Shown here one piece after another: positions 38-51,009 of a stretch of DNA of 51,046 nucleotides (the stretch's first letter is position 1; every line of letters starts with the position of its first letter). Origin of the DNA: a virus. The position numbers and the translations under genes are program-made. Location: the UHGV virus genome UHGV-1266211. The stretch is one strand, 5' to 3'. The notes under the pieces were generated by a model. That model was not told where the DNA came from. It did no database searches and saw only the letters and a list, made by a program, of their open reading frames with translations.

Positions 38-54
38 AGAACACTTTCTTAAAT
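38..54. repeat. Putative attL core (17-bp direct repeat)
   Basis: agaacactttcttaaat identical to 50993-51009, 140 bp from the integrase start. Confidence 0.4.
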
Positions 55-194
55 TGTCATTTGGCATATTACGAACAATTCCGCGTAAAAACGTTCTGTT
101 ACGCTAAACCCTTATCCAGCAGGCTTTCAAGGATGTAAACCATAACACTCTGCGAACTAGTGTTACATTGCGTGTAGCTTTGAGTGGGCAACTT

Positions 195-233
195 TGTGTA
201 CACTTTTGTGTACCCAAAAACAAAAATGTGTAC
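195..233 (+). promoter_or_regulatory. Three direct TGTGTAC repeats just upstream of / overlapping the integrase start
   Basis: tgtgtac at 195-201, 207-213, 227-233; possible Int arm-type sites or int promoter operator. Confidence 0.3.
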
Positions 234-240
234 CCATTCA

Positions 241-1434
241 ATGATCACCGACACAAAGCTCAGGAAGGCGCTCGGCAAGAAAAGAGATGATATCGAGATT
301 ATTTCTGATTCGCACGGGCTCAACGCCAGAATCAGCCAGGCCGGAAAAATATCATTTTTCTATCGGTATCGCTGGGCCGGTAAAGCGGTAAAACTCAATG
401 TTGGTGATTATCCTGCAATGAGTATCACCCAGGCAAGAGAGCGTCGCCAACAATTCAGAAACTGGTTAACTGAGGGACTGGATCCGCGAGAGCAGGTGAA
501 GCTGGATAAGCAGACCCGACAGGAAGCGATGTCCGTTGCCGAAGCGTTCAATTACTGGATTGAAAGGCACTGTATCGCTAACGGGCTAGTTAAAGTCGAT
601 TACTATCGCCAGGTGTTTGAGAAACATATCGCCGAACCGATGAAGAATGTCAAAGTCGATAACACAGCGAAAATGCACTGGATCAACGTCTTCGATTCTA
701 TAGAAAGCAGGGTGATGGCTCATTACATGCTTTCGCTGTGCAAACGGGCGTTTAGGTTCTGCGTTAACAGAAGTGTGATCGCCTCAAACCCACTCGAGGG
801 ATTACTGCCATCTGATGTCGGGCAAAAGCCTAGAAAGAGAACTCGCAGGATGGACGATGACGATCTGCGCAAAATCTATCAGTGGTTGAAAAGCCATATG
901 TCGATAGAGTCCGTTTTCCTGGTGAAATTTATTATGCTTACCGGATGCCGTACGGCTGAGATTCGACTTAGTGAGAGATCATGGTTTCGATTGGATGATA
1001 ATGAGTGGGTCGTGCCTGCGGGCAGTTATAAAACTCGGGTACATATTAGAAGGGGACTCTCAGACGCCGCCGTTAACCTGGTCAGAAATCACCTCAAGAA
1101 AATAAACACCAATCACCTGGTGACTTCACAACGTAAAATTGATGGCGGGATCAAAGATTCGCCCGTTCATTCACCTGTGGCATCCAATTACGCCCGTTCT
1201 ATTTGGAATGGAACAGGTATGGCAGAGTGGTCGCTTCATGATATGAGGCGGACGATAGCCACAAATCTCTCTGAGTTAGGTTGCCCGCCGCACGTAATTG
1301 AAAAGCTGCTCGGGCATCAGATGGTGGGGGTTATGGCGCATTACAACCTTCATGACTATATCGATGATCAGAAACACTGGCTCCACGTTTGGCAGAGCCA
1401 TCTTGAAAACATCATCGGTGAGCCGTTCAGTTAA
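241..1434 (+). CDS. int: Tyrosine integrase, P4-like family
   Basis: N-terminal arm-binding-like region ([30 protein letters not shown]...ARERR), C-terminal HDMRRT...LGH...Y catalytic motifs; start may be 226 or 241 (ORF opens at GTG 184). Confidence 0.9.
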
Positions 1435-42982: not shown

Positions 42983-45900
42983 ATGGAAGCGATCACTGGT
43001 GCAAAGGGTGGCAGCCAGAAGCAGCACACACCTGTAGAACAGCCCGATTCGGCTCAGTCAATGGCGCGCTGCCGCATGCTGCTGGCGCTCGGGGAGGGGG
43101 AGTTTGCTGGTGGCCTGGATGCGACCCGGATATTCCTGGACGGTACGCCGTTGGGAAACCCCGACGGAACGATGAATTTTGAAAATGTGTCATGGGATTT
43201 CCGGCCTGGCACACAGACCCAGACACCAATACCGGGATTCCCTGCAGTCGAGAATGAAACTACGGTTGGGGTATCGCTGACAAAGGCCACACCATGGACC
43301 CGCGCACTGAGTAACACCCAGATTGACGCGGTGCTGGTTCGTATTGGCATCCCTGGGTTACAGCAGCAGGAAAACGATGGGGATATTGTCGGCACTACGG
43401 TTCAGTACCATATTGATCTGGCGGTGGACGGTGGCGCTTACTCGACAGTCATGACGAAAACCGTCACAGAGAAGCTCAGCTCGCTCTATGAACTAACCCA
43501 CCGTATTAATCTTCCCAAAGCCAGCACTGGCTGGCAAATTCGAGTGGTGCGTGACACCGATGACAGCACCAGCCAGATGCTGCAGAACAAAACGCAGGTG
43601 CAAGCGATTACTGAAGTGATCGATGCTCGCCTGCGATATCCACACACAGCGCTGCTGTACGTGTCCTTTAACGCAAAGTCATTCAACAACATCCCTAAGA
43701 TTTCCTGCATGCCGAAGGGGCGCATCATCCGAATCCCTTCGAACTATGATCCAATAGCGCGGACTTATAGCGGAACATGGGACGGGACGTTTAAATGGGG
43801 CTGGACGAATAACCCGGCGTGGATTTGGTTCGATGTTCTGACTGAGCCGCGCTTCGGCCTTGGGCGCCGCGTGACGCCAGAAATGCTCGATAAGTGGGAG
43901 CTCTATCGCATCGCCCAGCGCTGCGACCAGAAGGTACCCGACGGGAAAGGCGGAAGCGGTACCGAGCCACGCTTCATGTTTGACGTTTACATCCAGTCCC
44001 AGGCTGATGCCTGGCAGGTGATTAAAGATATTGCCGCGGGCTTCAACGGAATGACTTTCTGGGGCAACAACATGTTCAATGTTGTCTCTGACATGCCGGC
44101 GGACACTACGAAGTTGCAGATCCTCACTCGCGCATCAGTGGTGGGTAAGCCGGTGTACTCGAGTGGCAGTGAGAAAAACCGATTCTCCAGCGCGCTGATT
44201 AACTTCAGCGATCCGGATAACCACTACCAGGACCGCACCACGGCAGTGATGTTTCCGGAACTGGTAAGGCAGTTCAAGTTTAAGCAGACACAAATCACTG
44301 CGATCGGTTGTACGCGTGAGAGCGAGGCGCAGCGGCGTGGCGGGTGGGCGGTGTATTCCAACTCCCTTGACCGCATTATCACGCTTCAGACTGGACTTGA
44401 TGGCTTTGTATTCGTGCCGGGCACCGTATTTGCGTTTGCAGATGAACGCCTGTCAGGGCGCGTTTACGGCGGGCGTATCACCGGGTATAACGCTGGTCTT
44501 AAGGCCGTGACCATTGACCGGGGCACCAGTGCGGTGGCGGGCGATACGCTGATGATTCGCACCCAGGGCGGTACCGTTGAAAGCCGGGTGATACAGGCCG
44601 TAAATGGCACGCAGCTGATCCTGTCCACGCCGTTCACGGCGGCGCCATTACCTAATGCCGTATTCGTCATTGATGCTGGTCAGCTGCGCCTGCAGTATTT
44701 CCGGGTAACGAACCTAAAATTTGATGATGAGGAAAACACCTTCACCATTACCGGTGCGGAGTATAACGCGTCGAAATACGACGCCGTTGATAACAATGCT
44801 CGCCTCGATACTCCTCCGATAAGCCTGATTCCGACCGGGCTAGTTAACCAGCCGACCAACATCGTGGTATCGAGCTATGATGCGGTTCGCCAGGGGCAAC
44901 GCGTGGCCACGCTAACCGCCTCGTGGGATGCGCCAATTGATAAAGACGGCAAACTGCAGTCGGACGTAATAGCGTACCGGGCACAGTGGAAGCGCGGAAA
45001 TAACGAATGGGTAAACGTGCCTGAAACCGGGTTACGAAATATCGAAGTGCCTGGCATTTTCGAGGGCGATTACCTTGTGCGCGTCCGTGCGATTAACTCT
45101 GGGGGAGCGTCCAGCCTTTGGGCCACGTCTGCGTTGACCCATCTTACCGGCCGCACCGGTGAAGTGCCCAAACCTGTCGGACTAACAGCAACAGAGGATG
45201 TTGTATTTGGGATCAACATTACATGGGGTTTCCCCGCAGATACCGCCGACACCCTGAGCACGGAACTGCAATACAGCGCTTCAGTCGATGGGGCAAATCC
45301 AATGCTTTTGGCGTCGGTGCCGTATCCTCAGAAACTCTATCAGCAGATGGGGCTGAAGGCAGGGCAGGAATTCTGGTACCGGGCACGGCTGGTTGACCGC
45401 ATCGGGAATCAGAGCGACTGGACAGACTGGGTGCGCGGGCAGGCCAGCATCGATGTTTCCGATATCACCGATGCAATCCTGGAGGACATGAAAGGCTCCG
45501 ATACGTTCAAAGACCTGATCGAGAACGCGGTGGACAGCAATGAAAAAATTGCTGGCATGGCTGACGAAATTAAAAACCATGCCGACGAACTCGAGCAGCA
45601 GGCGAAAGACATCCTGGAGAACGCTGACGGGCTGGCTCAGGCCGAAGTGAAGATCGACGAGATTTCTGTGTCGATGGACGGCATGACGGGAGGAGTGAAG
45701 AACTCGGCAATCGCGATTATTCAGAATGGGCTGGCGCAGGTGGTAAGCCGTCGCTCGCAGACCGCCACGAACGCCGGGAACAGTGCCAGTATAGACAGAG
45801 TGGATACTACGATTGCCGATACCAGCCAGGCGGTCGCACGCGCGCTGGTCACACTGGATGCAGAAGCTGGTGGCAATATCTCTAACTCAACGGACCTGAC

Positions 45901-46462
45901 AGAAACTCTTGCTGATTTCACCCAGGCTTCGGCAACAAAAATCAACACTCTGACTGTTAAATCAGGCGAAAACAGTGCAGCGATAAACGTCAACGCACAG
46001 GCTATAGCAGATGTAAACGGTAACCTCAGCGCGATGTATAACATCAAGGTGGGGGTGTCCAGTAACGGGCAGTATTACGCTGCCGGGATGGGTATTGGGG
46101 TTCAAAATACACCCTCCGGCATGCAGTCACAGGTAATCTTCCTGGCAGACCGTTTCGCCGTGACTACTATGGTCGGCGGGACTGTAACACTGCCGTTCGT
46201 TATCCAGAATGGCCAGGCCATTATCAGGGATACAGTCATTGGCGACGGGACCATAAGCAATGCAAAAATTGGCAATTACATCCAGTCGAACAATTATGTT
46301 GCCGGCTCTGTTGGCTGGAAACTGGATAAGTCCGGGACGTTTGAGAACTACGGTTCGACAGCTGGGGAGGGAGCCATGAAGCAGACCAACCAGACAATCA
46401 GCGTCAAGGATGGCAACAACGTTCTGAGAGTGCAGGTTGGCCGATTAACGGGGGTGTTCTGA
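42983..46462 (+). CDS. Host specificity protein J (central tail fiber / tip)
   Basis: 1159 aa, position after I, fibronectin-like middle region. Confidence 0.9.
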   Translation: MEAITGAKGGSQKQHTPVEQPDSAQSMARCRMLLALGEGEFAGGLDATRIFLDGTPLGNPDGTMNFENVSWDFRPGTQTQTPIPGFPAVENETTVGVSLTKATPWTRALSNTQIDAVLVRIGIPGLQQQENDGDIVGTTVQYHIDLAVDGGAYSTVMTKTVTEKLSSLYELTHRINLPKASTGWQIRVVRDTDDSTSQMLQNKTQVQAITEVIDARLRYPHTALLYVSFNAKSFNNIPKISCMPKGRIIRIPSNYDPIARTYSGTWDGTFKWGWTNNPAWIWFDVLTEPRFGLGRRVTPEMLDKWELYRIAQRCDQKVPDGKGGSGTEPRFMFDVYIQSQADAWQVIKDIAAGFNGMTFWGNNMFNVVSDMPADTTKLQILTRASVVGKPVYSSGSEKNRFSSALINFSDPDNHYQDRTTAVMFPELVRQFKFKQTQITAIGCTRESEAQRRGGWAVYSNSLDRIITLQTGLDGFVFVPGTVFAFADERLSGRVYGGRITGYNAGLKAVTIDRGTSAVAGDTLMIRTQGGTVESRVIQAVNGTQLILSTPFTAAPLPNAVFVIDAGQLRLQYFRVTNLKFDDEENTFTITGAEYNASKYDAVDNNARLDTPPISLIPTGLVNQPTNIVVSSYDAVRQGQRVATLTASWDAPIDKDGKLQSDVIAYRAQWKRGNNEWVNVPETGLRNIEVPGIFEGDYLVRVRAINSGGASSLWATSALTHLTGRTGEVPKPVGLTATEDVVFGINITWGFPADTADTLSTELQYSASVDGANPMLLASVPYPQKLYQQMGLKAGQEFWYRARLVDRIGNQSDWTDWVRGQASIDVSDITDAILEDMKGSDTFKDLIENAVDSNEKIAGMADEIKNHADELEQQAKDILENADGLAQAEVKIDEISVSMDGMTGGVKNSAIAIIQNGLAQVVSRRSQTATNAGNSASIDRVDTTIADTSQAVARALVTLDAEAGGNISNSTDLTETLADFTQASATKINTLTVKSGENSAAINVNAQAIADVNGNLSAMYNIKVGVSSNGQYYAAGMGIGVQNTPSGMQSQVIFLADRFAVTTMVGGTVTLPFVIQNGQAIIRDTVIGDGTISNAKIGNYIQSNNYVAGSVGWKLDKSGTFENYGSTAGEGAMKQTNQTISVKDGNNVLRVQVGRLTGVF

Positions 46463-46463
46463 T

Positions 46464-46766
46464 ATGGCTTATGGAATACAGACCTGGGATGCTTCGGGAA
46501 ACCCCAACAACTACGGAATCAAGCCCGTTTCCGTTGTTGGACGTATACAACTTGCCGCCGGACAAAACTCCGGCAGCTGGTCTTTCACTGTACCCTCAGG
46601 AATGAAGGTCGGTTTTGCGCTCTCACTTGATGAAGGAGGTAACAGCGTAGGGAGGAGCATTGTCGCGTCAGGGAACACAATAACCGTAACCGCAGCCTCT
46701 TCTGTGGGCCTGGGTAATTACCCGGCCTCTAAATGTGAGGTGGTCGTTTTCATGGAGAAAGCATAA
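46464..46766 (+). CDS. Hypothetical tail-associated protein
   Basis: 100 aa coupled to J; shares WDASG / SGSW motifs with the next gene. Confidence 0.5.
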   Translation: MAYGIQTWDASGNPNNYGIKPVSVVGRIQLAAGQNSGSWSFTVPSGMKVGFALSLDEGGNSVGRSIVASGNTITVTAASSVGLGNYPASKCEVVVFMEKA

Positions 46767-47440
46767 TGGCCGAATTTGGCGCGATGATATTAATGGATAA
46801 CGGGAATCCCTTTGTAACGCCACAATCAACGCCTTTCTGTCTTTACGGGAAGTATACCTTCAATTCATCCGCGAATGGCAGTTCTCAGCAGGTTGCTCAA
46901 AATATCGCTTTAAACGCTGATTACCCAGTGATGGTTTTTATCAAAACCACCAATACAGCACAGCCCACTCCGGTTATGTCTTACAGGAACGGCGGTAATG
47001 TGTATGTTGCTGGTGTTAATCCCTACAACCAAAGTTTCACTTTAACGGCGTACGTTTTTGCCATATTCCCGCAGATATTACCGAAATGGGGTTTGGCAAT
47101 ATGGGATGCGAGCGGAAAGCTTGTGTTAACTAATGAGTCCCGTGTGCTATCAGACCTGCAGACGGTTGGCACGCCTGGTGCAAACGGCGGGATAAATATT
47201 GACCAGACGCTGAGCGGGTCATGGGCCGTTGCACCTGCTCAGTTGGGTCAGACCATCATTGTGAATAATTCAACCCAGCCTCCGACTATCTACACGATAA
47301 ATGCTTATTCTTCATGCAGGTTTGACGGGGCCAATACGAGGATAAACGCAGGGGGGACCTCCACTGGGGCAGGTTCACCTGGAGGGGGAACGAATACTGG
47401 CATTTCATTAACCGCCATAAATACAGCGGCCTATGATTGA
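46766..47440 (+). CDS. Hypothetical tail-associated protein
   Basis: 224 aa; ATGA-type coupling. Confidence 0.5.
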   Translation: MAEFGAMILMDNGNPFVTPQSTPFCLYGKYTFNSSANGSSQQVAQNIALNADYPVMVFIKTTNTAQPTPVMSYRNGGNVYVAGVNPYNQSFTLTAYVFAIFPQILPKWGLAIWDASGKLVLTNESRVLSDLQTVGTPGANGGINIDQTLSGSWAVAPAQLGQTIIVNNSTQPPTIYTINAYSSCRFDGANTRINAGGTSTGAGSPGGGTNTGISLTAINTAAYD

Positions 47441-47551
47441 TTGATCGTTTTTAGCGATCAATAACATAATATTGATCTATCCAATCAATTATACCCACCA
47501 GAATTGTATTGGTATCGTCTAAGATACTGAATTCCTCTGGATACTATCAAA

Positions 47552-47785
47552 ATGAGAAAACTGATTATCTGCATGGCAGGCGCTGTCATGCTTACAGGAT
47601 GCGCTGGCGTAATTGAGAAACAGGAACCAGTTTGCAGCGGCACTGCAATCGTTGGCGGTCAGGAAACTACGGTTCAGATTTACGGTGTGCGTAAACAAAA
47701 CAACCAGACGCAGTACCGGGCTGGATATCCTTTCAGCTGGCGCTGGGTAAGTGCGAATACATTTACCGAAACAACCTGCAAATAA
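47552..47785 (+). CDS. Small lipoprotein (Cor/Llp-like candidate)
   Basis: 77 aa, signal peptide plus lipobox LTGC; between J-region genes and the tail fiber. Confidence 0.6.
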   Translation: MRKLIICMAGAVMLTGCAGVIEKQEPVCSGTAIVGGQETTVQIYGVRKQNNQTQYRAGYPFSWRWVSANTFTETTCK

Positions 47786-47806
47786 CCCACTACGCTTAAA
47801 CATAAA

Positions 47807-47829
47807 CCTCGCTCCGGCGGGGTTTTTTT
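47807..47829 (+). terminator. Rho-independent terminator
   Basis: cctcgc-tccg-gcgggg plus T7. Confidence 0.55.
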
Positions 47830-47845
47830 ATTGCCTGGAGAAAAT

Positions 47846-49432
47846 ATGCTTTATAACACCGGCACCATCGCCATTAATGGAAATACCGCCACCGGGACGG
47901 GTACAAACTGGACGGCACCGGCCAGCCAGGTCCGCGCTGGCCAGACGATCATCGTCATGTCTAACCCGGTGCAGATGTTCCAGATTTCATCTGTGAACAG
48001 CGCCACGTCAATGACGGTTACGCCTGCTGCTTCCCCGGCGCTGAGCGGCCAGAAGTATGGAATCCTGGTGTCCGATAACATCTCTGTCGACGGACTGGCG
48101 CAGGCGATGTCGCAGCTCATCAAAGAGTATGACGAGAACATTGGCGCGTGGGAGACATTCGCCACTACCTCAGCAAACCAGACCATCACCGTTACCATCA
48201 ACGGAACCTCCGTTAATATTCCAAGTATTGGCGCGCTTGCCAGAAAGGGGTCCAACAACGATATCACCGAGCTGAAAGGGCTCACAACTGCGCTTTCTGT
48301 TGCACAGGGCGGGACTGGGGCAAAGACCGAAGCTGACGCTCGCACAAACCTCGGTTTAGGAAGTAGCGCGACGAAGGACGTCGGAACGGCGGCCGGAACC
48401 GTGGCAGCCGGGGATGATTCGCGGTTGAATACTGTCGATAAAAAAACAGGGGGAAATGTTACCGGCAGTTTGATGGTAACTCAGGGAAATAGTATTGGAG
48501 TATCCACGCAGGAAGGTGGTGATAAGGCTGTTAAGCTATACAACATTACAGGGGATGGGACTGTCGGAAGTTATGTAAACGCTGTGGGAGGAGCTTGGTA
48601 TAATGGGAACTGGTCTCTTGGCGGCGTTCGGGGGAGTGGGACTAATTTAGACAGAGCGCAGTTAAATGTAAATAGCGGAACTGGTACGGCGGGTTCATTT
48701 TTATTTTACCCTGATGAGAGATTCAAATCATCTTCGTGTGGAGCAAATGGAGCTGGATATGGTGGCTCCTGGTCAGACATTAATACATGGCAAAGAAATA
48801 TATCTTTTTTTAGGGGTAATGTTGCAGTTAATAATGATGCTGGTTTCATTCCCTTTGCCCGCTGGCATAGTCAATGCAGTGGCGGATATTCTTCAACGGT
48901 AGGGCTTGGTTCTATAGCTACCGGGCCTAGTCCGTGGGCGGATGTGGCAATAACAACACTTGGGGATGGTGGCTCTGCCGGTCAGCGTATATTTCAATTC
49001 ACGACAGCAAACGGTGATATATATGCCAACGCTGGTGGGAATCTTTCCGGGAACTATATTTTCCAGAAGCAGCCTAACTGTGACATTACGCTGAAGCACG
49101 ATATTAAATATGATGATGGTTATCAGTCATACGAGAATATCAGGAAATTCCTGCCAGCAACTTACGTCTACAACGATGACCCTCGTGAGAGAGTTCGCCG
49201 AGGTGTAATCGCTCAGGACGTCATGAAGATTGATAGTGAGTACGTAAAGCTGGTCCCTGCTGCGCCAAAGTTTGATAGTGAAGGAAACAGGGTTGATGCT
49301 GATGATACGTTGGCACTGGATAACAACGTCATCATGCTTGATACCGTGCTGGCATTGAACTACGTCATTAAACAGCTGGAGACAACACAGAAAGAGCTCC
49401 AGGAGCTTAAGCTAAAAATAGCGGCATCATGA
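47846..49432 (+). CDS. Side tail fiber protein (C-terminal part inside the invertible segment; C-terminal intramolecular chaperone-like domain)
   Basis: GGAG RBS, ATG 47846; constant N-terminal part to ~48408; C-terminal ...NCDITLKHDIKYDDG... chaperone-like tail. Confidence 0.8.
   Translation: MLYNTGTIAINGNTATGTGTNWTAPASQVRAGQTIIVMSNPVQMFQISSVNSATSMTVTPAASPALSGQKYGILVSDNISVDGLAQAMSQLIKEYDENIGAWETFATTSANQTITVTINGTSVNIPSIGALARKGSNNDITELKGLTTALSVAQGGTGAKTEADARTNLGLGSSATKDVGTAAGTVAAGDDSRLNTVDKKTGGNVTGSLMVTQGNSIGVSTQEGGDKAVKLYNITGDGTVGSYVNAVGGAWYNGNWSLGGVRGSGTNLDRAQLNVNSGTGTAGSFLFYPDERFKSSSCGANGAGYGGSWSDINTWQRNISFFRGNVAVNNDAGFIPFARWHSQCSGGYSSTVGLGSIATGPSPWADVAITTLGDGGSAGQRIFQFTTANGDIYANAGGNLSGNYIFQKQPNCDITLKHDIKYDDGYQSYENIRKFLPATYVYNDDPRERVRRGVIAQDVMKIDSEYVKLVPAAPKFDSEGNRVDADDTLALDNNVIMLDTVLALNYVIKQLETTQKELQELKLKIAAS
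48378..48408. repeat. Left inverted repeat / inversion crossover site
   Basis: acgtcggaacggcggccggaaccgtggcagc, exact reverse complement of 50189-50219; encodes ...GTVAA in both fiber frames. Confidence 0.65.
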
Positions 49433-49448
49433 ATCCTGAGCATTCAAC

Positions 49449-49479
49449 TGCAGCCCGTTCCGGCAAATTACGGGCTGCA
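49449..49479. terminator. Palindromic hairpin between the two convergent fiber cassettes
   Basis: tgcagcccg-N13-cgggctgca, 9-bp perfect stem. Confidence 0.45.
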
Positions 49480-49485
49480 AATTAT

Positions 49486-50188
49486 TCAGCTTCCTTGTTC
49501 CAGTTTTTCCACCTTACTCGTCAAATTATCGACCCTAACCATTAGGGCCAGAATTGCCTCATGGTGCAAAGCTGCAGCAACCCCGTAAGTATCGACAGTT
49601 TTCACATCAGGAATAACTGTTCCGTCCTCCAGAGTAATATCATAGCCACCTTTAACAGCTTCGGGAAATACTTGCTCAACGTCCTGTGCAATAAAGCCGT
49701 AACCCGTAGTTTCATTGTCTATACGCTCCCAAAAGCAGCCTTTAATGGCTTTCATCTTTATGAGAGGATCGGATATGCGCGCGATGTCTTTTTTTATACG
49801 CGCATCTGAGAGCGATACCCATTGACCACCAGTGCCACGACCATCAGGGTAAAACATAAACGATGCGGCTGCCCCACCAGATTCCGCTATCACATTTAAC
49901 TGAACACGATCAAGTGGAGTCGAGCCGCTCCGTATTGCACCTAGCGCCCATGAACCGCTATACCACTTACCAACTATCTGGTTTACATAATTGCCCTGAG
50001 ATGAATCATTTGTCGTATTATTCATCTCAATGGAGTTATCACCGCCACTTCCCTTTCTGACCCCTAAACCACCGCCGGCATTTGTATGCCAGTCAGTTGC
50101 TCCGCCACCAACACCGTTGATCGTCACAGCAGATGAAATCGTCCCCCCCGTTTTACCGTTAACGCTTCCAAGCCGTGAATCGTCGCCA
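49486..50188 (-). other. Silent alternative tail-fiber C-terminal cassette (no own start; expressed only after inversion)
   Basis: Frame continuous with the right inverted repeat; shares ...GDDSRL..., ...W Y.G.W.LG..R.G.T.LDR.QLNV... with the active C-terminus; ends with ...SLSDARIKKDI... chaperone motif. Confidence 0.7.
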
Positions 50189-50219
50189 GCTGCCACGGTT
50201 CCGGCCGCCGTTCCGACGT
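50189..50219. repeat. Right inverted repeat / inversion crossover site
   Basis: Exact reverse complement of 48378-48408. Confidence 0.65.
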
Positions 50220-50314
50220 TCCTTGTGGCGCTGTCTCCTAAACCGACGTTTTATAGATTGCTCTCGAGCGGCCTGGCCGATAACTTCACCTGATTTTTTT
50301 GCAGAAATAACTGG

Positions 50315-50872
50315 GTGAAAAATATGCAAATTGGCTATGTCAGAGTGTCAACAAATGACCAAAATACAGATCTCCAGCGCCAAGCTCTCGAACGCGCAGG
50401 ATGTGAACAGGTTTTTGAAGAAAAAATGAGCGGGACGGTAGCGAACCGGCCAGCGCTCAAAAAGCTTCTGCGGACTCTGAATGCGGGCGATACACTGGTG
50501 GTGTGGAAGCTGGACAGGATAGGCCGCAACGTTCTGCATGCGCTGTTGATGTTCCAGCAGTTACAGGAAAAGGGTATCAACTTCCGCAGTATTACCGATG
50601 GCGTGGATCTCAAAACAGCCAGCGGCCGCTATAACTTTCGTAACATCCTTTCCGCAGCACAATATGAATCTGATCTTAATAGCGAACGTACCTTAGCAGG
50701 GCTGGCCGTAGCCAGGGCAAAATGGCGAGTTGGTGGTCGCAGGCCTAAGTTCACGGATGAGCAATGGCGGGAAATGGGGGAGCGGATGGCAACCGGTGAA
50801 TCACGACAAAGCGTATCAAAAACGTATGGAGTAGGGCTCTCAACTCTGTATAAAAAGTTTCCAGCTAGCTGA
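50315..50872 (+). CDS. pin: Serine recombinase, DNA invertase of the Hin/Gin/Cin/Pin family
   Basis: MQIGYVRVSTNDQNTDLQ...TLVVWKLDRIGRN... catalytic Ser, C-terminal HTH ...GLSTLYKKFPA; collinear with Pin/Hin. Confidence 0.9.
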   Translation: MKNMQIGYVRVSTNDQNTDLQRQALERAGCEQVFEEKMSGTVANRPALKKLLRTLNAGDTLVVWKLDRIGRNVLHALLMFQQLQEKGINFRSITDGVDLKTASGRYNFRNILSAAQYESDLNSERTLAGLAVARAKWRVGGRRPKFTDEQWREMGERMATGESRQSVSKTYGVGLSTLYKKFPAS

Positions 50873-50992: not shown

Positions 50993-51009
50993 AGAACACT
51001 TTCTTAAAT
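50993..51009. repeat. Putative attR core (17-bp direct repeat)
   Basis: Identical to 38-54. Confidence 0.4.

What the first reader, a model, noticed from the sequence alone, without database searches (positions are those of the whole stretch)
47552..47829. Cor/Llp-like 77-aa lipoprotein between the J-region genes and the switchable tail fiber
A small lipoprotein (MRKLIICMAGAVMLTGC…) with its own RBS and terminator sits in an AT-rich spacer immediately upstream of the side tail fiber. This is the classic position and size of Cor-type exclusion lipoproteins that inactivate outer-membrane receptors such as FhuA.
Basis: partly seen in the sequence, partly recalled or inferred. Interest (0 to 1): 0.5.

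Follow-up and report, generated by a model that had tools for sequence, protein, structure and literature searches.

The report
Known phage phi80 Cor exclusion lipoprotein
This small gene is an exact copy of cor, the well-known phage phi80 lipoprotein that shuts down the bacterial FhuA receptor so that other FhuA-using phages cannot infect the lysogen; it is real, correctly interpreted and ordinary.

The parts
47441..47551 (+). AT-rich spacer between the gp23-like gene and cor, holding the presumed cor (moron) promoter and the 5' UTR. By homology with the phi80 annotation: -35 at 47488-47493 (ATTATA), extended -10 at 47510-47518 (TGGTATCGT), transcription start near 47526.
   Evidence: G+C is 0.31 at 47440-47559. 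The promoter elements and start site annotated in phi80 record FN582354 were carried onto window coordinates through the ungapped alignment A1. The spacer is identical to mEp237 and about 89% conserved across phi80, HK022, Fraca and mEp390. The generic promoter scan does not pick this site, and its hits do not exceed chance. Promoter activity is therefore inferred, not shown.
47552..47599 (+). Lipoprotein signal peptide of Cor (residues 1-16, MRKLIICMAGAVMLTG), cleaved by signal peptidase II before Cys17.
   Evidence: Match to the lipoprotein signal pattern. The same feature is annotated on the identical phi80 sequence.
47600..47785 (+). Mature Cor lipoprotein plus stop codon: 61 aa, about 6.8 kDa, pI about 8.6. 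Cys17 is the lipidated N-terminus, and Ala at +2 predicts sorting to the outer membrane. Cys28 and Cys76 are conserved and probably form a disulphide. The fold is a small all-beta domain.
47804..47834 (+). Intrinsic terminator of cor (AAACCTCGC-TCCG-GCGGGGTTT followed by TTTTTATTG). It is possibly bidirectional, as annotated in phi80.
   Evidence: Terminator scan. Identical sequence annotated as a rho-independent terminator in phi80 and mEp237.
45470..46462 (+). Context: C-terminal third (residues 830-1159) of the J-like tail tip protein (whole gene 42983..46462). This part is phi80-type.
   Evidence: 92% identical to phi80 J over residues 830-1159, against 46% over residues 1-829.
46464..46766 (+). 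Context: phi80 gp22 homologue (100 aa), first gene of the conserved three-gene cor cassette downstream of J.
   Evidence: PHROG 557 at E=3e-36. 94% identical to phi80 gp22. The cassette is described in PMC13164509 and PMC8594841.
46766..47440 (+). Context: phi80 gp23 homologue (224 aa), second gene of the cassette. It is a candidate FhuA-specific receptor-binding or accessory protein.
   Evidence: PHROG 425 at E=1e-80. 91.5% identical to phi80 gp23. The receptor-binding role comes from the literature only.

Best explanation
This is the cor gene of a phi80-type lambdoid prophage, an independently transcribed 'moron'. [quoted passage not shown] There the 61-aa beta-domain, probably clamped by a Cys28-Cys76 disulphide, binds the periplasmic face (plug and barrel) of the TonB-dependent transporter FhuA and locks it in a state that phage receptor-binding proteins cannot use. 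The lysogen, or an infected cell, thereby becomes resistant to FhuA-dependent phages such as T1, T5, phi80, N15, HK022 and the mEp phages, including this phage's own progeny, and it loses FhuA transport functions.

Shown here: the ORF, the signal peptide, the terminator, family membership, identity to phi80 Cor, the phi80-type receptor module next to it, and the Llp-like predicted fold. Taken from the literature: FhuA inactivation and phage exclusion by Cor. Inferred by analogy with the T5 Llp-FhuA crystal structure: periplasmic binding and allosteric closure of the extracellular loops.
For: Sequence and family evidence:
- The ORF and lipobox are present.
- NF047972 'phage exclusion lipoprotein Cor' scores 140.9 bits against a cutoff of 31, and PHROG 1119 scores E=7e-37.
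- The protein is 100% identical to Cor of phi80, HK140, HK225, mEp043, mEp213 and mEp237.
- The CDS and terminator are 100% identical in DNA to phi80 and mEp237.
- The phi80 record annotates promoter, signal peptide, lipidated Cys and the function 'blocks TonB-dependent outer membrane FhuA receptor'.
- RefSeq names the identical locus cor in E. coli genomes; it is found in 45 of 5426 complete genomes.

Context:
- The J C-terminus (92%), gp22 (94%) and gp23 (91.5%) are phi80-type. The phage is therefore predicted to use FhuA itself.
- The gp22-gp23-cor cassette is reported to track FhuA usage.

Structure:
- The AlphaFold2 model has pLDDT above 90 in the mature domain.
- BFVD hits are phage exclusion proteins and lipoproteins.
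- Cys28 and Cys76 are conserved and correspond to the Cys11-Cys58 disulphide of Llp (PMC9586334).

Literature:
- Cor inactivates FhuA (Uc-Mass 2004, cited).
- An AF3 model of T1-like Cor on the periplasmic side of FhuA has ipTM 0.84.
Against: - No experiment was done on this copy, and expression from the prophage is inferred.
- The molecular mechanism of Cor 'has not yet been elucidated' (bioRxiv 10.64898/2026.03.26.714494).
- Sequence and profile searches find no similarity to Llp.
- Foldseek against the PDB did not retrieve Llp. Its top hits were generic Tudor/chromo SH3-like barrels at E above 0.06.
- Arguijo-Hernandez et al. [quoted passage not shown] The mechanism may therefore not be a simple one-to-one Cor-FhuA complex.
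- There is no canonical Shine-Dalgarno sequence.
Confidence: 0.82

Rival explanations
1. Cor excludes FhuA-dependent phages only indirectly. It would do so through a multi-protein complex with abundant outer membrane proteins (OmpA, OmpC, OmpF and others) that masks or perturbs FhuA, and not through Llp-like jamming of the FhuA plug from the periplasm.
For: Arguijo-Hernandez et al. [quoted passage not shown] The Cor mechanism is stated to be unresolved. Cor has no sequence similarity to Llp.
Against: The predicted fold matches FhuA-bound Llp best of all PDB chains. The cysteine pair is conserved as in Llp. [quoted passage not shown] The cassette co-varies specifically with FhuA usage, which argues for a specific Cor-FhuA contact. 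The two models are not mutually exclusive.
Confidence: 0.12
2. Cor is surface-exposed and blocks the phage-binding site of FhuA directly from outside the cell (steric occlusion).
For: An early in vitro study placed Llp outside the cell (Pedruzzi et al., discussed in PMC9586334). In the published AF3 work, initial docking placed Cor on the outer side of FhuA.
Against: [quoted passage not shown] The crystal structure and mutant data show that Llp is periplasmic. The authors dismissed the outer docking as not available in vivo.
Confidence: 0.03
3. The ORF is a generic prophage lipoprotein moron with another role (for example serum resistance, like Bor), or an inactive remnant, and does not act in exclusion.
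For: Pfam and PADLOC hold no family for it. The Shine-Dalgarno sequence is weak.
Against: It is a full-length, equivalog-level match to the Cor model. It is 100% identical in DNA, including the terminator, to the functional phi80 gene. The upstream region is conserved in five phages.
Confidence: 0.02

Closest known systems
Cor of Escherichia phage phi80 (UniProt P17651; CBH95076.1 in FN582354; also the cor genes of HK140, HK225, mEp043, mEp213 and mEp237)
   Same: The 77-aa protein is identical. The CDS and terminator are identical in DNA. The position is the same: after J, gp22 and gp23 and before stf. The annotated signal peptide, lipidated Cys and terminator are the same.
   Different: The upstream spacer differs from phi80 at about 20 of 122 positions and is identical to mEp237. 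The J N-terminal two-thirds are only 46% identical to phi80. The side tail fibre and its invertible segment are only partly matched by any phage in the collection.
Cor of HK022, N15, mEp167 and T1-like Drexlerviridae (NCBIfam NF047972, PHROG 1119)
   Same: Same family, length, lipobox and conserved Cys pair. The conserved motifs include IYGVRK, QTQYRAGYPF and W-W. The cassette with two upstream genes is the same.
   Different: About 79% identity to HK022-type Cor, and below 60% to most T1-like Cors.
Llp, the lytic conversion lipoprotein of phage T5 (PDB 8A60 chain B, 7QJF)
   Different: No sequence or profile similarity is detectable, and identity is 13% in the structural alignment. Llp is an early gene of a lytic phage encoded next to the pb5 receptor-binding protein. 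Cor is a prophage moron downstream of a lambda-J-type tip. Cor has no solved structure or complex.

Membership tests
Cor phage exclusion lipoprotein (NCBIfam NF047972 lamb_exclu_cor; PHROG 1119) | Full-length match to the family HMM above the curated cutoff | tested here: met
   140.9 bits against a cutoff of 31, E=9e-42, residues 1-76 on profile positions 1-76 of 78. PHROG 1119 at E=7e-37.
Cor phage exclusion lipoprotein (NCBIfam NF047972 lamb_exclu_cor; PHROG 1119) | Type II (lipoprotein) signal peptide with a lipobox Cys, and a mature protein of about 60 aa | tested here: met
   MRKLIICMAGAVMLTG|C fits the lipoprotein pattern. The mature protein is 61 aa. The identical phi80 sequence is annotated the same way.
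Cor phage exclusion lipoprotein (NCBIfam NF047972 lamb_exclu_cor; PHROG 1119) | Conserved residues of the family, including the Cys pair of the mature domain | tested here: met
   In 36 homologues, P26, I43, Y44, Q52, G58, P60, F61 and C76 are invariant, and C17, C28, W63 and W65 are at least 90% conserved. All are present here.
Cor phage exclusion lipoprotein (NCBIfam NF047972 lamb_exclu_cor; PHROG 1119) | Genomic position: last gene of the cassette downstream of the J-like tip gene (after gp22- and gp23-like genes) and upstream of the side tail fibre | tested here: met
   The order is J 42983..46462, PHROG 557 gene 46464..46766, PHROG 425 gene 46766..47440, cor, then stf from 47846. phi80, mEp237, HK022, Fraca and mEp390 have the same order.
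Cor phage exclusion lipoprotein (NCBIfam NF047972 lamb_exclu_cor; PHROG 1119) | Function: excludes FhuA-dependent phages and inactivates FhuA | not testable with these tools
   Known from the literature for the identical phi80 protein and for mEp167 Cor.
Llp (T5 lytic conversion lipoprotein) family | Detectable sequence homology to T5 Llp | tested here: not met
   phmmer of Cor, and hmmsearch with a 36-sequence Cor profile, against all PDB chains (which include Llp 8A60 and 7QJF) found no Llp hit at E of 10 or less.
Llp (T5 lytic conversion lipoprotein) family | Llp fold | tested here: met
Llp (T5 lytic conversion lipoprotein) family | [quoted passage not shown] | not testable with these tools
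   Shown for Llp (PMC9586334). For Cor there are only published predictions.
Llp (T5 lytic conversion lipoprotein) family | Encoded next to a pb5-type receptor-binding protein gene in a lytic T5-like phage | tested here: not met
   Here the gene sits in a temperate lambdoid prophage, downstream of a J-type tip and gp22/gp23.

The most novel reading that the evidence does not exclude
The most novel reading not excluded concerns regulation. The conserved AT-rich leader of cor holds the only cluster of three GATC sites in the 51-kb prophage, inside an ATTGATCG-N7-CGATCAAT inverted repeat. This could be a regulatory element, for example Dam-methylation-sensitive or bound by a regulator. Exclusion, and its cost in ferrichrome uptake, would then be switchable or heterogeneous in the lysogen population, much as the adjacent tail fibre is switchable by inversion. 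A second possibility is that the J C-terminus, gp22, gp23 and cor travel as one recombining receptor-plus-exclusion module, but that idea is already in the literature.
Probability: 0.05. Interest if true: 0.45.

Novelty: already known. Interest (0 to 1): 0.08.

Why it matters
As a discovery it matters little. The gene is the archetypal cor, already named in GenBank and RefSeq records of identical sequence.

Its practical value is interpretive. It marks this prophage as FhuA-directed. It predicts that the lysogen resists T1, T5, phi80 and related FhuA-dependent phages, and has impaired FhuA-dependent uptake (ferrichrome, albomycin, colicin M, microcin J25). That is relevant to phage therapy and to phage contamination.

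The one open scientific point is general to the family and not specific to this copy. No Cor-FhuA structure exists, and the molecular mechanism of Cor is still inferred from T5 Llp.

Tried and rejected
- Pfam: only sub-threshold noise (DUF4223 at 14.8 bits, MiAMP1 at 14.7 bits), so Pfam holds no Cor family.
- PADLOC: no model matches Cor, gp22 or gp23.
- PDB by sequence and by a 36-sequence profile: no Llp or any other meaningful hit.
- Fur-box hypothesis (iron-coupled regulation of cor): the best match in the spacer is 11-12 of 19, within the background for this window, so it is rejected.
- Dam/GATC-cluster hypothesis: the cluster is unique in the window, but two of the three GATC sites are lost in HK022. 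It is left as a weak note.
- Generic sigma-70 scan: its hits near cor are no more than expected by chance, and it does not pick the promoter annotated in phi80.
- Source genome: no complete RefSeq E. coli genome matches more than 80% of the last 24 kb of the window (94.6% identity), so the exact host was not identified.
- Antisense ORF 47519..47803 (-, 94 aa), which fully overlaps cor: considered a by-product of the cor reading frame, and no evidence was sought beyond that.

Full report
**1. Observation**

The window holds an ATG-initiated ORF at 47552..47785 (+) of 77 codons plus a stop. It translates to MRKLIICMAGAVMLTGCAGVIEKQEPVCSGTAIVGGQETTVQIYGVRKQNNQTQYRAGYPFSWRWVSANTFTETTCK. The first 17 residues fit the bacterial lipoprotein signal pattern: R2/K3, an uncharged hydrophobic core, and lipobox L-T-G-C with Cys17. 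Ala at +2 means there is no Asp retention signal for the inner membrane. The mature protein is 61 aa, about 6.8 kDa, with cysteines at precursor positions 17, 28 and 76.

The 112-bp spacer upstream is AT-rich, with G+C of 0.31 at 47440-47559 against about 0.5 on either side. Downstream there is a hairpin at 47804-47825 (9 pairs, 5 G-C, loop of 4) followed by a T run.

The side tail fibre ORF starts at ATG 47846. An inverted alternative fibre C-terminus (49486..50196, -) and a Hin/Pin-type invertase (50315..50872) follow. The phrase 'upstream of the switchable tail fibre' is therefore accurate.

One detail fails. There is no canonical Shine-Dalgarno sequence. The best pairing with the anti-SD is a GGA about 10 nt upstream at -3.1 kcal/mol, against -6.4 to -9.9 for gp22, gp23 and stf.

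**2. Identity**

- The protein matches NCBIfam NF047972 ('lamb_exclu_cor', equivalog, phage exclusion lipoprotein Cor) over its full length, at 140.9 bits against a curated cutoff of 31 (E=9e-42).
- It matches PHROG 1119 'Cor superinfection exclusion protein' at E=7e-37.
- Pfam and PADLOC have no family for it.
- tblastn against 50,697 phage records finds 242 records. Fifteen are 100% identical over all 77 residues. These are phi80 (three records, one partial) and HK140, HK225, mEp043, mEp213 and mEp237. Most of these records annotate the gene as Cor.
- In DNA, the CDS, the terminator and the start of stf are 100% identical to phi80 and mEp237. The upstream spacer is identical to mEp237 and differs from phi80 at about 20 positions.
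- In RefSeq, 45 of 5426 complete E. coli genomes carry the 406-bp locus, 40 of them at 99% identity or more. Most of the records listed annotate it 'cor: phage exclusion lipoprotein Cor'.

The curated phi80 record FN582354 annotates a -35 element, an extended -10 element, a transcription start, the signal peptide, the acylated Cys and a rho-independent terminator. Its note reads 'blocks TonB-dependent outer membrane FhuA receptor of E. coli... moron gene'. Carried through the ungapped alignment, these map to window 47488-47493, 47510-47518, about 47526, 47552-47599, 47600-47602 and 47804-47834.

**3. Context**

A 17-bp direct repeat, AGAACACTTTCTTAAAT, lies at 38-54 and 50993-51009. It sits about 120 bp beyond the invertase gene. 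mEp237 annotates a 17-bp phi80-like attP at that position. A 416-aa ORF at 184..1434 matches the length of the mEp237 integrase. The window is therefore a whole integrated phi80-type prophage with about 37 bp of host DNA at each end.

The J-like tip protein (42983..46462, 1159 aa) is mosaic relative to phi80 J. Residues 1-829 are 46% identical and residues 830-1159 are 92% identical. The two genes between J and cor are homologues of phi80 gp22 (94%) and gp23 (91.5%), and belong to PHROG 557 and PHROG 425.

The literature describes exactly this three-gene cassette downstream of J in T1, HK022, N15, ES18 and phi80, all FhuA users (PMC13164509, citing Wietzorrek 2006). It interprets loci downstream of gpJ as bona fide receptor-binding loci paired with their cognate superinfection exclusion protein (PMC8594841; bioRxiv 10.64898/2026.04.02.716166). 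The prophage is therefore predicted to use FhuA, and cor sits in the module that determines that specificity.

**4. Mechanism**

What is established, from the literature:
- Cor of phi80 and N15 inactivates FhuA.
- Cor of mEp167 excludes FhuA-dependent lambdoid phages and inactivates FhuA functions (Uc-Mass 2004, cited).
- The molecular mechanism 'has not yet been elucidated'.

For the analogous T5 Llp, the crystal structure shows a periplasmic lipoprotein bound to a non-native FhuA plug conformation. Extracellular loops 7 and 8 fold inward over the phage-binding site. The authors suggest Cor works likewise (PMC9586334).

I tested the fold relationship independently.
- A 36-sequence alignment of Cor homologues (52-90% identity, from Escherichia, Enterobacter, Salmonella, Klebsiella, Cronobacter, Rahnella, Mixta and others) gave an AlphaFold2 model with mean pLDDT 83, and 91-94 over residues 31-77. 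The mature domain has five beta-strands.
- Foldseek against the PDB missed this and returned only generic Tudor/chromo SH3-like barrels.
- Foldseek against BFVD returned a T1-like phage 'super-infection exclusion protein' (E=3e-6), an uncharacterised protein of Escherichia phage DT571/2 (E=3.5e-4), and, at weaker scores, phage lipoproteins.
- Neither the sequence nor the profile finds Llp.
- Cys28 (at least 90% conserved) and Cys76 (invariant) lie at mature positions 12 and 60. They parallel the Cys11-Cys58 disulphide of Llp.

My best explanation, at about 0.8 confidence for the overall function and lower for the structural detail, is this. Cor is a lipoprotein of the inner leaflet of the outer membrane. 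It binds FhuA from the periplasm and makes it unusable by phage receptor-binding proteins and for transport.

The main rival concerns mechanism only. [quoted passage not shown] Exclusion may therefore need other outer membrane proteins.

**5. Comparison with what is known, and novelty**

Every testable defining feature of the Cor family is met: HMM score, lipobox, conserved residues and synteny. The phenotype is not testable here. The relation to Llp is one of shared fold and probably shared mechanism. It is not family membership by sequence, and the genomic setting differs (temperate lambdoid moron against a lytic T5 early gene). The gene is identical to the archetype and already annotated as such, so the finding is already known.

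**6. Side checks that led nowhere**

- No Fur box lies in the leader; the best match is 12 of 19, which is background.
- The leader holds the only cluster of three GATC sites within 40 bp in the window (47443, 47456, 47474), inside an ATTGATCG-N7-CGATCAAT inverted repeat. HK022 has lost two of the three sites, so a Dam-linked role is weakly supported at best.
- The source genome could not be identified among complete E. coli RefSeq genomes. The best match covers 80% of the last 24 kb at 94.6% identity.

**Verdict**

This is the known phi80 cor gene inside a phi80-type prophage. It is ordinary and correctly read by the first stage, and interest is low (0.08).

Noticed in passing
window 38-54 and 50993-51009; 184..1434: A 17-bp direct repeat, AGAACACTTTCTTAAAT, lies at both ends of the window, at the position where mEp237 annotates a phi80-like attP. 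A 416-aa integrase-sized ORF follows the left copy. The window is therefore an entire integrated phi80-type prophage of about 51 kb, with only about 37 bp of host DNA on each side.
   Followed up: partly
window 42983..46462: The J-like tail tip protein is mosaic relative to phi80 J. Residues 1-829 are 46% identical and residues 830-1159 are 92% identical. The junction lies near residue 830, at the conserved ILEDMK...FKDLIENAVDSNEKIAGMADEIK stretch. The J C-terminus, gp22, gp23 and cor look like one exchangeable FhuA-recognition and exclusion module.
   Followed up: partly
window 46464..46766 and 46766..47440: PHROGs labels the two genes between J and cor 'outer membrane protein' (PHROG 557) and 'membrane associated protein' (PHROG 425). 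They have no Pfam, NCBIfam or PADLOC family. Recent literature treats genes at this position as the real FhuA-specific receptor-binding or accessory proteins, so the PHROG names are probably misleading.
   Followed up: partly
window 47440-47480: The only cluster of three GATC (Dam) sites within 40 bp in the whole 51-kb window lies here (47443, 47456, 47474). It sits in a perfect inverted repeat, ATTGATCG-N7-CGATCAAT, directly after the gp23 stop codon, with a third ATTGATC copy at 47471. The sites are conserved in phi80, Fraca and mEp390, but two GATC sites are lost in HK022. The function is unknown, and no Fur box is present.
   Followed up: partly
window 47526-47551: The cor leader (GAATWCCTCTGGATACTATCAAAATG) is nearly invariant across five phages whose Cor proteins differ by up to 21%. 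Yet it has no canonical Shine-Dalgarno sequence (best anti-SD duplex -3.1 kcal/mol). Translation initiation may rely on an unstructured A-rich leader.
   Followed up: no
window 47851..48345 (-) and 47519..47803 (-): Long antisense ORFs overlap the start of stf (164 aa) and the whole of cor (94 aa). The first corresponds in position to 'gene 25', annotated in phi80 record FN582354 as a minus-strand moron with its own promoter. That gene shares the cor hairpin as a bidirectional terminator. Whether it is a real gene was not examined.
   Followed up: no
window 47846..50872: The side tail fibre gene (to 49432) is followed by an inverted 236-aa ORF resembling an alternative fibre C-terminus (49486..50196, -) and a 185-aa invertase (50315..50872). 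This is a Pin/Gin-type invertible host-range switch. Only about half of this 4.5-kb region matches any phage in the collection at 85% identity or more, so the fibre tips appear to be variant alleles.
   Followed up: no
window 27000-51046: Megablast of this stretch hits 5423 of 5426 complete E. coli genomes, but only two cover 80% or more of it. Some short part is therefore near-universal in E. coli. Possible candidates are invertase or tail-fibre homologues of cryptic prophages, or the att flank. Which part it is was not determined.
   Followed up: no
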